Below are positions 30,066 through 32,106 of a DNA stretch of 64,000 nt, one piece after another. Position 1 is the first letter of the stretch; each line of letters begins with the position of its first letter. Position numbers and translations under genes: made by a program. Origin of the DNA: Prorocentrum cordatum (taxonomy: Eukaryota); the NCBI GenBank assembly GCA_963575745.1, contig CAUYUJ010000289.1:1-64000 (forward strand), given 5' to 3'. The notes beneath the pieces were generated by a model. It ran no database searches. It worked only from the letters and a program-made list of their open reading frames with translations, and had not been told where the DNA came from.

Positions 30066-30510
30066 TTATCATCATCATCATCATCAGCATCACCATCATT
30101 AGCATCCTCCTCATCATCTTCATCAATCTCATCATGAACACCGTCAGTATCAGCATTCGCATCATCAGCATTATCATCATCATTATCATCATCATCACCA
30201 CCGCCATCACCAGCACCAGCATCATCATCATCATCAACATCATCATCAGCATCATCCTCCTCCTCATCATCATCAAACGCATCAGCATCAGCATCAGCAT
30301 CATCACCAGCATCATCATCGTCATCATTATTATCATCACCACCATCAGCATCATCATCATCATCATCCTCATCATCATCACCACCATCACCATCTCCACC
30401 ATCATCATTATCAGCATCATCATCATCACCAACACCATCACCATCATCGTCATCATTATCAACAACATCATCATCATAATCAACATCGTCATCATAACCA
30501 CCATCATCAT
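30066..30510. repeat. (CAT)n microsatellite left of LINE-B (continues at 32061-32290)
   Basis: Direct reading. Confidence 0.95.
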
Positions 30511-30531
30511 CCGTAGCCATTTTGGCTCAAG
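30510..30531 (+). other. DinoSL relic at the 5' end of LINE-B
   Basis: TCCGTAGCCATTTTGGCTCAAG, a complete 22-nt match, directly following (CAT)n. Confidence 0.97.
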
Positions 30532-30674
30532 TTGGAACCATTGCTCCGTGGCTCCAGCTTGGGAGCAGCCAAGGAGCAGATCGAGGGTTCTTGGCAGACA
30601 GGCTGCCTGCGGCTCTCTGTATCCCTTTCCCACCGAGTGCATACCCTCTCCGCCCCTCTCCCGGCCCTGCCGCG

Positions 30675-31575
30675 ATGTCGGTCGATATGGCCGCGATCCA
30701 AGCCATGCTCGATGCCCAGCTCGTGAAGATCGAGAAAACCATAGATGATAAACTCGAGGCGAAAGTCTCGGGATTAGCAGCTACTGTTGGAGTCCAAGGT
30801 CAGATGCTGAAAGAGATCACCGACCGCCTTGAGAAGTCAGAGACCCGTCTCAACGCCATGGAACAGATGGCTCAGATGAGCCCCCGTCAGCCGCCCTTTG
30901 TCAACAGTCAGGGAGGTAAGCGCCGTGCAGTCGACAGCTCTGTCGGGGACGGGTCCACTACGGGAGGGAGTGCAGGAGGAGGATCGTCGCTTGAGGATGC
31001 CCACCGTCTTCTCATCCTTGGGTTCCAGGATCGGTTGATGGCCACCACTCTCGAGAGGGTTGCGAAGGGCATTATCTCTAAGTGTGCGACTGGGCAGGCA
31101 GCAAGTCTCATTCGGATTCGGGCCTATGATCTCCAGAAGAAAGTTACTTTGGATTTCCCTACCCCGGCCATGGCTTCGGACTTCCAGATGAATTTCAGGA
31201 AGCTGAGTGAGAGCTACAGCATGGTTAACCCACGTAATCAGCAGGATGTGTGGCCCCCTTCGTGTTCGTCGTAACTGGTCTCCTCAACATCGGCTTCTCT
31301 TCTGCAAGATGGGAAAAATACGGGGTGCGGTTCAGGAAGAGCTCTCAAAAGTTGGTTTGCAGGCCAATTCTAATGGGATCAGCGGTGACGTCTTCGGCCT
31401 TCGCTCGCGGGAAGACCCTGTTCCTCTTTTTCGCCTCACCTGCTGCCCCCAGAACTCTGATGTGATCCACCTTCGCCCTGACGATGCAGGTCTTAACGCT
31501 CTTGGACTGAACACCCCAGAGATCCGTGAGAAATTCGAGGCTGCGTTTGCCACTGAGCCCACGCGTCCCTTTTGA
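30675..31575 (+). pseudogene. LINE-B ORF1 (coiled coil plus RRM-like region), one frameshift near 31250
   Basis: MSVDMAAIQAML..., coiled coil (LKEITDRLEKSETRLNAME), RLLILGF...VTLDF. Continues in the +1 frame as PLRVRRN...TRPF*. Confidence 0.72.
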
Positions 31576-31809
31576 AGATGAATCGAGCAGGATAGGCCGC
31601 CCTGGGGACCAAATGTTTCCGTCTCTCCCAGGGGCCTCTCTGAACTTTTTGGCGGGTGCTCTCCGCGCCCGAGAAGGGAGGATCGAGTTTAATCTTTCCT
31701 CCAGTTTTGTTGCCAGGAGCTCGAGCCGTTCCGACTCCGACTCGAGCTCGTCTTCGCCCAGTGGGGGTCTGCCCGCTGAATCGTCGCTTTCCTTTCCCCC
31801 CCCCCTTCC

Positions 31810-32055
31810 TGCTCTCTGTCTCTGCTCACTTGGAACTCTAGGGGACTCTTCGCTTCCATTCATCACTCCTCTCTTCGGGCCACACGACGGTACAAACAGC
31901 TTCTGGGATTGTCTCGGCGTTCCAGTATTCTGTGCGTTCAAGAGACCCACGGCACGGCTGGCGATGCAGCGGCGCTCCAGTCCGATCTGCAAGGTTGGTC
32001 GATTGGATTCTCAGGACATACCTCGGACATTGCTGGTGGTGTTCTCACGCTGAAA
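31810..32055 (+). pseudogene. LINE-B ORF2 N-terminus (APE endonuclease fragment)
   Basis: LLTWNSRGL (W at 31831) ... ILCVQETH ... GGVLTL, which are classic N-terminal APE motifs. Truncated at aaaaatat plus the TSD. Confidence 0.9.
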
Positions 32056-32106
32056 AATATTCATAACCACCATCATCATCATCATCAGCGTCATCATCAT
32101 CATCAG

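What the first reader, a model, noticed from the sequence alone, without database searches (positions are those of the whole stretch)
30492..32079. SL-headed LINE truncated at the 3' end yet bounded by a clean 19-bp TSD
Seen: the distinctive repeat variant TCATAACCACCATCATCAT lies immediately before the SL (30492-30510) and again immediately after the break in the APE domain (32061-32079), preceded by aaaaatat. The 1.55-kb unit therefore integrated at this size and is not a later deletion. Established: LINE copies are normally 5'-truncated because TPRT starts at the RNA 3' end. Inference: either a prematurely terminated SL-capped ORF1-only transcript was mobilised in trans, or RT primed internally at an A-rich patch. 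Either way the machinery needs no specific 3' sequence and completes at the SL, which offers a mechanism for SL-marked retrogene formation in dinoflagellates.
Basis: partly seen in the sequence, partly recalled or inferred. Interest (0 to 1): 0.8.

Follow-up and report, generated by a model that had tools for sequence, protein, structure and literature searches.

The report
Spliced-leader-headed, 3'-truncated LINE retrocopy
A 1.55-kb copy of a dinoflagellate jumping-gene (LINE) messenger RNA, still carrying the spliced-leader sequence at its head but stopping early in its second gene, lies between two identical 19-20-base repeats of the target, so it was most likely pasted in at that size by LINE-type reverse transcription; comparable 3'-truncated copies are already known from mammals.

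Summary
The exact DinoSL (positions 2-22) sits at 30511-30531. It is followed by a 5'UTR, a LINE ORF1 (frameshifted near 31254), a spacer, and only the first 76 of 225 profile positions of an APE endonuclease domain, ending at 32052. Then come AAAAATAT and an exact second copy of the 19-mer that precedes the SL. The repeat is identical over 20 nt, with 1-2 nt ambiguous against the SL.

The AAC triplet of the repeat occurs once in each flank. Removing the insert plus one repeat restores a single in-phase CAT array. A conservative simulation puts chance at about 0.3%. So this is a true target-site duplication of LINE-like length, and the unit integrated truncated.

I could not tell a short-A-tailed truncated RNA from internal priming. 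No other family copy spanning the break could be fetched, and the read-laying was swamped by the microsatellite, so the junctions are unverified in reads.

3'-truncated TSD-flanked L1 copies, HAL1 and DinoSL retrogenes are all in print, so novelty is modest. The value lies elsewhere: the papers I read leave open which machinery makes dinoflagellate retrogenes, and here an 18-20-bp TSD around an SL-capped cDNA points to LINE-type machinery. This is one locus only.

The parts
30050..30491 (.). Upstream part of the imperfect (CAT)n target array
   Evidence: TRF array 30068-30511, period 3. Triplet census: 84 CAT of 153.
30492..30510 (+). 5' copy of the target-site duplication (19 nt; identity runs to 30511, so 18-20 nt)
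30511..30531 (+). DinoSL, positions 2-22, exact. No GT donor follows it, so it is a copied mRNA 5' end and not an SL RNA gene.
   Evidence: DinoSL sequence as quoted in PMC7245778 (passage). No SL RNA family among the Rfam matches.
30532..30674 (+). 5'UTR of the LINE transcript
   Evidence: Lies between the SL and the ORF1 ATG. Related contigs of run X1 cover 30541-30696 (record 1).
30675..31575 (+). ORF1, about 300 aa, split by one extra base near 31254 (frames 30675-31274 and 31255-31575)
   Evidence: The 306-aa relative P0006 reads through both halves (57% and 76% identity). In X1, 3 contigs lack 1 nt at 31254 (depth 56 of 76). The N-terminal long helix 4-72 is the only part of the model that reaches block-mean pLDDT 70-83.
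31576..31824 (+). Inter-ORF spacer and ORF2 leader with an indel-prone C run. No in-frame ATG between the stop at 31777-31779 and the APE start.
   Evidence: Indels at 31792-31803 in related contigs.
31825..32052 (+). N-terminal third of the ORF2 APE endonuclease domain (profile positions 1-76 of 225), ending ...AGGVLTL
32053..32060 (+). AAAAATAT: junction filler of unresolved origin (short A-tail remnant, or a templated A/U-rich patch)
   Evidence: At the K codon, 13 of 13 relatives that span the position have I, V or L. N at the next position is shared with 2 of those 13.
32061..32079 (+). 3' copy of the target-site duplication
32080..32290 (.). Downstream part of the (CAT)n target array, in phase with the upstream part once the insert is removed

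Best explanation
A LINE family of this dinoflagellate is transcribed and, like other nuclear mRNAs, receives the 22-nt spliced leader by trans-splicing. [quoted passage not shown] The bottom strand was nicked left of TCATAACC... and the top strand 18-20 nt further on. cDNA synthesis did not begin at the LINE's own 3' end. It began after codon L of ...AGGVLTL in the APE domain, and it ran to the second (or first) nucleotide of the SL. Gap repair then made the 18-20-bp target-site duplication. The copy therefore arrived 3'-truncated, without RT, and cannot move by itself.

Shown: the anatomy, the TSD and its improbability by chance, and the truncation inside APE.

Inferred: TPRT by a LINE-encoded APE/RT, from the TSD length and the SL lying inside the duplicated unit.

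Two sub-routes are not resolved. (a) About 35%: the template was a truncated RNA with a very short A-rich tail (A5 then TAT), mobilised in trans by the RT of another element. (b) About 30%: the RT primed internally on a longer RNA at an A/U-rich patch, as in mammalian tailless retropseudogenes.
For: The SL is exact and directly abuts the upstream repeat, and no GT follows it. The repeat is exact over 19-20 nt and carries a triplet (AAC) that occurs once per flank. The chance estimate is 0.29% under a model biased towards chance. Removing the insert restores one in-phase array. APE homology stops at profile position 76 of 225. In tblastn of 6 proteins, 5 of them LINE proteins including two full ORF2s, no LINE protein matches downstream of 32058. 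An 18-20-bp TSD is LINE-like, whereas integrase TSDs are about 4-6 bp (recalled).

For route (a): dinoflagellate genomic gene copies carry a 'miniature' poly(A) of 3-5 A at the polyadenylation site, possibly 'a byproduct of duplication' (PMC2488372, passage), and here there are 5 A. Also, 13 of 13 relatives have I, V or L where this copy reads K (AAA), which suggests the A run is not coding sequence.

For route (b): L1-mediated internal priming gives 3'-truncated, TSD-flanked copies (PMC5322556).

The family is multi-copy in run X1. Short contigs, 3-12% divergent in the 8 listed pieces, lie along the element, and 29 of 30 bins have depth.
Against: Neither junction was confirmed in reads or contigs. 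The one read-laying run was swamped by CAT-repeat matches, and its listed loose ends and joints are all microsatellite. No second copy of the family spanning the break, no empty-site allele and no family 3' end could be obtained, so it is unknown whether AAAAATAT is templated. The TAT after the A run is unexplained under route (a). Under route (b) the start of the TSD should be complementary to the RNA at the break, which cannot be checked. The target shows no A-rich motif of the kind seen for L1. It is a single locus.
Confidence: 0.68

Rival explanations
1. Orthodox TPRT from the element's true 3' end, followed by loss of the interior. Either the RT copied only the last few nucleotides (...AAAAATAT) and then jumped to the APE region of the same or another RNA, or a later deletion removed everything from 32053 to within 8 nt of the 3' end. 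In this reading the copy is internally deleted and not 3'-truncated, and it says nothing about independence from the 3' end.
For: Eight nucleotides of unknown origin sit between the APE break and the TSD. The K codon they start is unlike 13 of 13 relatives, so they need not be APE sequence. Internally deleted L1 mRNAs and copies exist (PMC5860796, passages).
Against: A random deletion or jump would have to leave 8 nt or fewer of a multi-kb element. My estimate is well under 1-2% per event. The family's 3' end is unknown, so nothing positive ties AAAAATAT to it.
Confidence: 0.12
2. Assembly artefact: a chimeric or collapsed join inside the CAT arrays created one or both junctions.
For: The flanks are long imperfect microsatellites. 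The scaffold has a 100-N gap 2.5 kb downstream at 34544-34643. ORF1 carries a homopolymer-type 1-nt indel. The junctions are unverified.
Against: A misjoin does not create an exact 19-20-nt direct repeat that abuts the first SL base on one side and the break on the other, nor keep the array in phase across the reconstructed site. A contig of the metagenome run X2 matches 30828-31095 with 0 differences in 268 nt. The internal sequence therefore exists outside this assembly, but that contig covers no junction.
Confidence: 0.06
3. Endonuclease-independent capture: a partial cDNA of the SL-capped LINE RNA was ligated into a pre-existing staggered double-strand break in the fragile CAT array by end joining. 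The overhang was filled in to give the repeat, and AAAAATAT is filler DNA.
For: 3' truncation and filler nucleotides are typical of endonuclease-independent L1 insertions (recalled, not checked in a paper here). Microsatellites are break-prone. The target has no recognisable LINE nick motif.
Against: Such insertions usually lack TSDs (recalled), and a 19-nt stagger from a spontaneous break is unusual. The second SL-headed LINE in the window also abuts a trinucleotide array, which fits a preference of the element's endonuclease as well as it fits fragility.
Confidence: 0.06
4. No TSD at all: the two 19-mers are chance or pre-existing repeats within a variant-rich CAT array.
For: Related variants (CAT CAC CAC CAT) recur in the upstream array: 3 matches with 2 mismatches. 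26 of 639 distinct 19-mers in the CAT/ATG arrays are repeated.
Against: Apart from the 19-mers of the (ATG)n run at 58460-58579, which lie in the opposite orientation, all other repeated 19-mers are 0-2 changes from pure (CAT)n, whereas this one is 3 away and holds the only AAC of each flank. Simulated chance is 0.29%. Both copies abut the independently defined element ends.
Confidence: 0.02

Closest known systems
Tailless retropseudogenes and 3'-truncated, TSD-flanked L1 copies of therian mammals (PMC5322556; passages and section 15 read)
   Same: A LINE-machinery (TPRT) product that is complete or nearly complete at the 5' end, lacks the template's 3' end and oligo(A) tail, and is flanked by a TSD. 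That paper counts 90 3'-truncated against 708 full-length L1s with TSDs in one human screen. It poses the same two alternatives, truncated RNA versus internal priming at A-rich single-stranded sites.
   Different: The host is a dinoflagellate, the LINE family is unrelated, and the 5' end is a trans-spliced leader. The target starts TCATAACC and not the TT/WAAAAWW consensus. Complementarity between the target and the RNA at the break could not be tested.
HAL1 (half-L1) non-autonomous elements (described in PMC5322556, passage; the original paper was not read)
   Same: An L1 derivative with ORF1 but no RT, flanked by TSDs and dependent on the RT/EN of full-length LINEs.
   Different: [quoted passage not shown] Here only one copy is known, ORF1 is frameshifted, 228 nt of APE are retained, and there is no real poly(A).
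DinoSL-tagged retrogenes of dinoflagellates (PMC7245778, PMC5585692, PMC12014239, PMC6050394; passages read)
   Same: A genomic copy of a mature, SL-trans-spliced mRNA with the SL encoded in DNA at its 5' end.
   Different: The copied mRNA is that of a LINE itself. The SL is complete with no relic series. A TSD of LINE-like length is visible, a feature those passages do not use or report. Those papers call the machinery unknown.
SpIREs and prematurely polyadenylated L1 mRNAs (PMC5860796; passages read)
   Same: Aberrantly processed LINE mRNAs can still be retrotransposed, some only with proteins supplied in trans, and they give dead-end copies.
   Different: SpIREs are internally spliced and keep the L1 3' end and poly(A). 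This copy lacks the 3' two-thirds or more of the element.
SL-gene-specific LINEs of trypanosomatids (SLACS, CRE, CZAR; recalled, only a search listing seen)
   Same: An association of a non-LTR retrotransposon with spliced-leader sequence.
   Different: Those elements insert into SL RNA genes. Here the SL lies inside the duplicated unit, the flanks are a CAT microsatellite, and no SL intron follows. The association comes from trans-splicing of the transcript, not from target choice.

Membership tests
APE-type non-LTR retrotransposon (LINE) copy | ORF2 with an N-terminal APE endonuclease domain | tested here: met
   Only the N-terminal third is present. Pfam PF03372 positions 1-76 of 225, E 6.7e-4, 19.9 bits, below the curated 24.5. 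39 proteins at E<=1e-3, including an APE+RT ORF2 of 1261 aa. W, E and H of the TWN...QETH motifs are invariant in alignment A1.
APE-type non-LTR retrotransposon (LINE) copy | Reverse transcriptase domain | tested here: not met
   In tblastn of 6 proteins, 5 of them LINE proteins including two full ORF2s, there is no match downstream of 32058. The sequence after 32060 is the CAT array. The copy is a truncated derivative, not an autonomous member.
APE-type non-LTR retrotransposon (LINE) copy | Variable-length target-site duplication of roughly 7-20 bp | tested here: met
   18-20 bp, exact. Chance 0.29%.
APE-type non-LTR retrotransposon (LINE) copy | Family-specific 3' end (poly(A), simple repeat or 3'UTR structure) | tested here: inconclusive
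   Only AAAAATAT precedes the TSD. The family's 3' end is unknown because no other copy could be fetched.
DinoSL-tagged retrocopy | Genomically encoded DinoSL at the 5' end of the copied transcript | tested here: met
   21 of 21 nt exact at 30511-30531. No GT donor after it.
DinoSL-tagged retrocopy | Poly(A) remnant at the 3' end | tested here: inconclusive
   A5 followed by TAT. This is compatible with the 3-5 A 'miniature poly(A)' of dinoflagellate gene copies (PMC2488372), but it may be templated.
HAL1-like ORF1-only non-autonomous LINE family | Several copies sharing the same 3' end | not testable with these tools
   No genome is held. There is only one copy in the window. The contig data were swamped at the 3' junction.
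HAL1-like ORF1-only non-autonomous LINE family | Intact ORF1 | tested here: not met
   One extra base near 31254 splits ORF1. 3 related contigs in X1 lack it.
Tailless (internally primed) LINE-mediated retrocopy | 3' truncation of the template, no oligo(A) tail, flanking TSD | tested here: met
Tailless (internally primed) LINE-mediated retrocopy | The start of the TSD is complementary to the source RNA at the break | not testable with these tools
   The parent sequence beyond 32052 is unknown.
SL-gene-specific LINE (SLACS/CRE type) | Insertion inside an SL RNA gene | tested here: not met
   The flanks are a CAT array. The SL lies inside the TSD-bounded unit. No SL RNA family match.
Endonuclease-independent LINE insertion | Absence of a TSD | tested here: not met
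   An exact 18-20-bp TSD is present.

The most novel reading that the evidence does not exclude
LINEs of this dinoflagellate replicate through SL-trans-spliced mRNAs, and their TPRT machinery will integrate an SL-capped RNA that lacks the LINE's own 3' end. Both SL copies in the window head LINEs. The 18-20-bp TSD around this 3'-less copy would then be the first structural signature identifying LINE-type machinery, and not LTR elements or retroviruses, as the maker of DinoSL-tagged retrogenes. The 1.55-kb unit may be a member of a HAL1-like, ORF1-bearing non-autonomous family, and these elements may prefer trinucleotide microsatellites as targets.
Probability: 0.3. Interest if true: 0.65.

Novelty: new member of a known kind. 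Interest (0 to 1): 0.42.

Why it matters
The dinoflagellate papers I read say the machinery behind the very abundant SL-tagged retrogenes is unknown:
- 'Direct evidence is still lacking' (PMC5585692).
- 'Retroviruses cannot be ruled out' (PMC12014239).
- Symbiodiniaceae LINEs are described as inactive remnants (PMC10235124).

A TSD-bounded insert that begins at the SL gives a simple test that scales. Measure TSD length and 3'-junction structure for all SL-headed inserts in a genome. TSDs of 15-20 bp point to LINE-type TPRT, and 4-6 bp to integrase. This locus shows that the test can work, and it suggests that the LINE enzymes tolerate templates without the LINE 3' end. On its own it is one decayed copy of a kind already described in mammals.

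Tried and rejected
1. Whole-genome search for other copies or an empty site: no genome is held.
2. Other copies in the window: blastn of the element finds only itself. tblastn with 6 proteins, 5 of them LINE proteins, finds only this element and the unrelated LINE at 13.7 kb.
3. Public DNA. The metagenome scans with the APE fragment and ORF1, the viral-contig scans and the prokaryote genome scan found no relative.
4. Protein searches with the APE fragment. The word-index searches found none at 'longer' or 'near' lengths. The exhaustive search gave 39 hits, mostly short fragments. The closest (60%, 73 aa) ends before the break. One 998-aa hit with 12 stretches is a low-complexity repeat protein and was dropped. 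I aligned 15 of the 39.
5. Cluster listing of 5 relatives: no longer members spanning the break.
6. Runs and reads. 22 runs were listed, and the best holds 0.24 of the words. Laying X1, X5, X21 and X2 at 80% likeness gave depth on the element in X1 and X5. The 3'-junction bins and all listed joints and loose ends are CAT-repeat noise, so there is no verdict on either junction or on what other copies read beyond 32052.
7. ORF1 structure: mean pLDDT 49.7, unusable for a fold search. Pfam finds no family for ORF1.
8. Rfam on 29500-33000: 14 sub-threshold matches, all in the microsatellite, none meaningful.
9. Earlier notes of this scan: nothing by place, sequence or words.
10. Disrupted-gene idea. 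The reconstructed site has a 267-aa, 41% Asp minus-strand frame, but its first Met is at residue 262, so there is no support for a gene.
11. Literature. Two searches for an SL-headed LINE in dinoflagellates, plus passages of seven papers, found no description of one. This is not proof that none is in print. Supplements were not opened.
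Full report
WHAT IS THERE

The window is dinoflagellate nuclear DNA. The 21-nt core of the dinoflagellate spliced leader (DinoSL, DCCGTAGCCATTTTGGCTCAAG; quoted in PMC7245778, passage) occurs exactly twice, at 13690 and 30511, both on the + strand. No further copy appears with up to 3 mismatches.

At 30511 the SL is preceded directly by TCATAACCACCATCATCAT (30492-30510). 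It is followed by TTGGAACC... and not by a GT donor, so it is the copied 5' end of a mature mRNA and not an SL RNA gene. No Rfam family reaches its threshold in 29500-33000.

Downstream of the SL the order is:
- A 143-nt 5'UTR.
- ORF1, from the ATG at 30675.
- A 250-nt spacer.
- An open frame from about 31825 that reads ...LLTWNSRGLF...CVQETHGT...AGGVLTL.

ORF1 has two relatives in the 5.8-billion-protein collection (2 of 386 candidates, 55% and 65% identity). The 306-aa relative P0006 reads through both window frames, 30675-31274 and 31255-31575. The window copy therefore carries one extra base in a C run near 31254. Three related contigs of run X1 lack that base (depth 56 of 76).

The last frame matches Pfam Exo_endo_phos positions 1-76 of 225 (E 6.7e-4, 19.9 bits, under the curated 24.5). 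It also matches 39 proteins at E<=1e-3 in the exhaustive search. One of these is a 1261-aa protein with APE and RT domains.

Homology stops at 32052. Then come AAAAATAT (32053-32060), the second copy of the 19-mer (32061-32079) and more CAT array. In tblastn of 6 proteins, 5 of them LINE proteins, no LINE protein matches downstream of 32058.

IS THE REPEAT MORE THAN CHANCE?

Yes.
- The two copies are the only exact ones in 64 kb.
- They are identical over 20 nt. The last one or two bases (T, C) could equally be SL positions 1-2, so the TSD is 18-20 bp, with a small microhomology at the 5' junction.
- The flanks are an imperfect (CAT)n array. The AAC triplet of the repeat occurs once in 153 upstream and once in 76 downstream triplets, each time only inside the repeat.
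- Cutting out 30511-32079 gives one array of 223 triplets in a single phase.
- A first-order triplet Markov model trained on that array, which includes the motif and so favours chance, placed the observed 19-mer within about 34 nt of the start of an independent array in 571 of 200,000 runs. Any 19-mer left of a random cut recurred within 12 nt to its right in 1,874 of 200,000.
- Of 639 distinct 19-mers in the window's CAT/ATG arrays, 26 are repeated. Apart from those of the opposite-orientation (ATG)n run at 58460-58579, all but this one are 0-2 changes from pure (CAT)n.

WHAT IT IS

It is a retro-inserted cDNA of an SL-trans-spliced LINE mRNA. It is complete at the 5' end, ends inside the APE domain, and is bounded by a TSD of LINE-like length. 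The SL lies inside the duplicated unit and the 3' repeat follows the break after only 8 nt. The simplest reading is that the unit integrated at this size by target-primed reverse transcription.

The copy is dead: it has no RT, ORF1 is frameshifted, and no ATG is visible for ORF2.

The family is multi-copy and diverged in at least one sequenced organism. In run X1, 29 of 30 bins have depth, and the eight listed pieces are 138-177 nt with 6-20 differences. An estuary metagenome contig matches 30828-31095 with 0 differences in 268 nt.

HOW THE 3' END AROSE

This could not be settled. No other copy spanning 32040-32060 could be fetched:
- No genome is held.
- Nothing turned up in metagenome, viral or prokaryote contigs.
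- The word-index searches found no protein relatives of the APE fragment, and the cluster listing held no longer members.
- The single read-laying run was swamped by CAT-repeat matches exactly at the 3' junction.

Indirect evidence points both ways.
- I aligned 15 of the 39 relatives. In the 12 that reach the position after GGVxxx, plus the 1261-aa ORF2, the residue is I, V or L in 13 of 13. This copy reads K (AAA). That argues the A run is not APE coding sequence.
- Dinoflagellate gene copies carry a genomic 'miniature' poly(A) of 3-5 A at the polyadenylation site, 'possibly a byproduct of duplication' (PMC2488372, passage). Five A's fit a truncated transcript with a very short tail, which would have to be mobilised in trans.
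- Against that, the N codon that follows is shared with 2 of the 13 relatives, and the TAT is unexplained.
- Mammalian L1 is known to prime internally at A-rich single-stranded sites (PMC5322556).
- A third route is a normal start at the true 3' end with an early template jump, or a later deletion sparing 8 nt or fewer. It needs an improbable breakpoint but cannot be excluded without the family's 3' end.

COMPARISON WITH WHAT IS KNOWN

The closest described things are:
- The 'tailless retropseudogenes' and 3'-truncated TSD-flanked L1 copies of therian mammals. One relaxed human screen found 90 3'-truncated against 708 full-length L1s with TSDs. The same dichotomy of truncated RNA versus internal priming is discussed and decided there for internal priming (PMC5322556, passages and section 15).
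- HAL1, the ORF1-only L1 derivative that depends on full-length L1 (same paper, passage).
- Aberrantly processed L1 mRNAs that still retrotranspose, some only in trans (SpIREs; PMC5860796, passages).
- DinoSL-tagged retrogenes (PMC7245778, PMC5585692, PMC12014239; passages).

It is not an SL-gene-specific LINE of the trypanosomatid kind, because the flanks are microsatellite and the SL is inside the TSD.

Song et al. already noted that 'RNA-dependent DNA replication' genes are enriched among DinoSL-tagged retrogenes (PMC5585692, passage). RT genes behind an SL relic are therefore implicit in print. My two searches and the passages read in seven papers found no explicit description of an SL-headed LINE with its TSD. 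I did not open supplements, and subscription papers are not covered.

VERDICT

The thing is a new member of known kinds: LINE-mediated, 3'-truncated retrocopy, and DinoSL-tagged retrocopy.

Its interest is as an exemplar. The papers read call the retroposition machinery of dinoflagellates unknown, favour LTR elements, or leave retroviruses open, and Symbiodiniaceae LINEs are described as inactive remnants. An exact 18-20-bp TSD around an SL-capped cDNA is a LINE-type signature and suggests a genome-wide test. Against a high score, it is a single decayed copy, its junctions are unverified in reads, and its mechanism at the 3' end is unresolved.

SEEN IN PASSING

The other SL, at 13690, heads a long LINE of an unrelated family. 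It has a 1444-aa open frame with RVT_1 at 25.7 bits (under the curated cut-off) and a weak zf-RVT further on. It abuts a (CCT)n array. Its 3' end is ambiguous among three (TCC)n runs.

Period-3 arrays cover 11-13% of the window. Two of two SL-headed LINE 5' junctions abutting such arrays would happen by chance about 1.6% of the time. With n = 2 this is only a hint of a target preference.

Noticed in passing
window 13690 to about 19897 (or 20161, or 20286), + strand: A second, unrelated SL-headed LINE. The exact DinoSL core at 13690 directly follows a (CCT)n array. Behind it are an ORF1-like frame with a Cys/His-rich start (MARNKYLVCPWHGCSG...) and a 1444-aa open frame with RVT_1 (E 1.1e-5, 25.7 bits, below the cut-off), a weak zf-RVT (E 2.3e-4), and frameshifted downstream frames. 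Its 3' end and TSD are ambiguous: (TCC)5 runs at 19898-19912 and 20162-20176, or the (CCT)n array from 20287. No A tail appears at any of the three. The base before the SL is C, so the SL copy starts at position 2 here too.
   Followed up: partly
window 13640-13689 and 30068-30511: Both SL-headed LINE copies have their 5' junction inside trinucleotide microsatellites, (CCT)n and (CAT)n. Period-3 arrays cover 7,176 nt, 11.2% of the window (12.8% without the inserts). Chance for both is about 1.6%. This may be a target preference or array fragility, but n = 2.
   Followed up: partly
window 31254: One extra base in a C run splits ORF1 of the truncated copy. 3 related contigs in run X1 lack it. 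It is either decay of a dead copy or a homopolymer error of the assembly.
   Followed up: partly
window 34544-34643: A run of 100 N (a scaffold gap) lies 2.5 kb downstream of the element.
   Followed up: no
window 29771-30526 and 32162-32335, - strand: On the minus strand the CAT array reads as a poly-Asp frame. In the reconstructed pre-insertion site it is a 267-aa stop-to-stop frame, 41% Asp, whose first Met is at residue 262. There is no support for a disrupted gene.
   Followed up: yes
window 22464-23684, 52392-53637, 34879-35775, 43570-44328, 54961-57432: Several long-period tandem arrays: 90 bp x 13.8, 101 bp x 9 plus variants, 306 bp x 2.9, 335 bp x 2.2, and 10-nt GGTGTCCCGT-based higher-order repeats. 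They were not examined.
   Followed up: no
window 30828-31095: A 268-nt contig of an estuary metagenome run (X2) matches the ORF1 region with 0 differences. The same or a near-identical copy therefore exists in an environmental sample. It covers no junction.
   Followed up: no
proteins P0006, P0047, P0048 (ENA contigs of 1120-1323 nt): Relatives of ORF1 come from short public contigs on which the listed product is the complete 306-aa ORF1.
   Followed up: no
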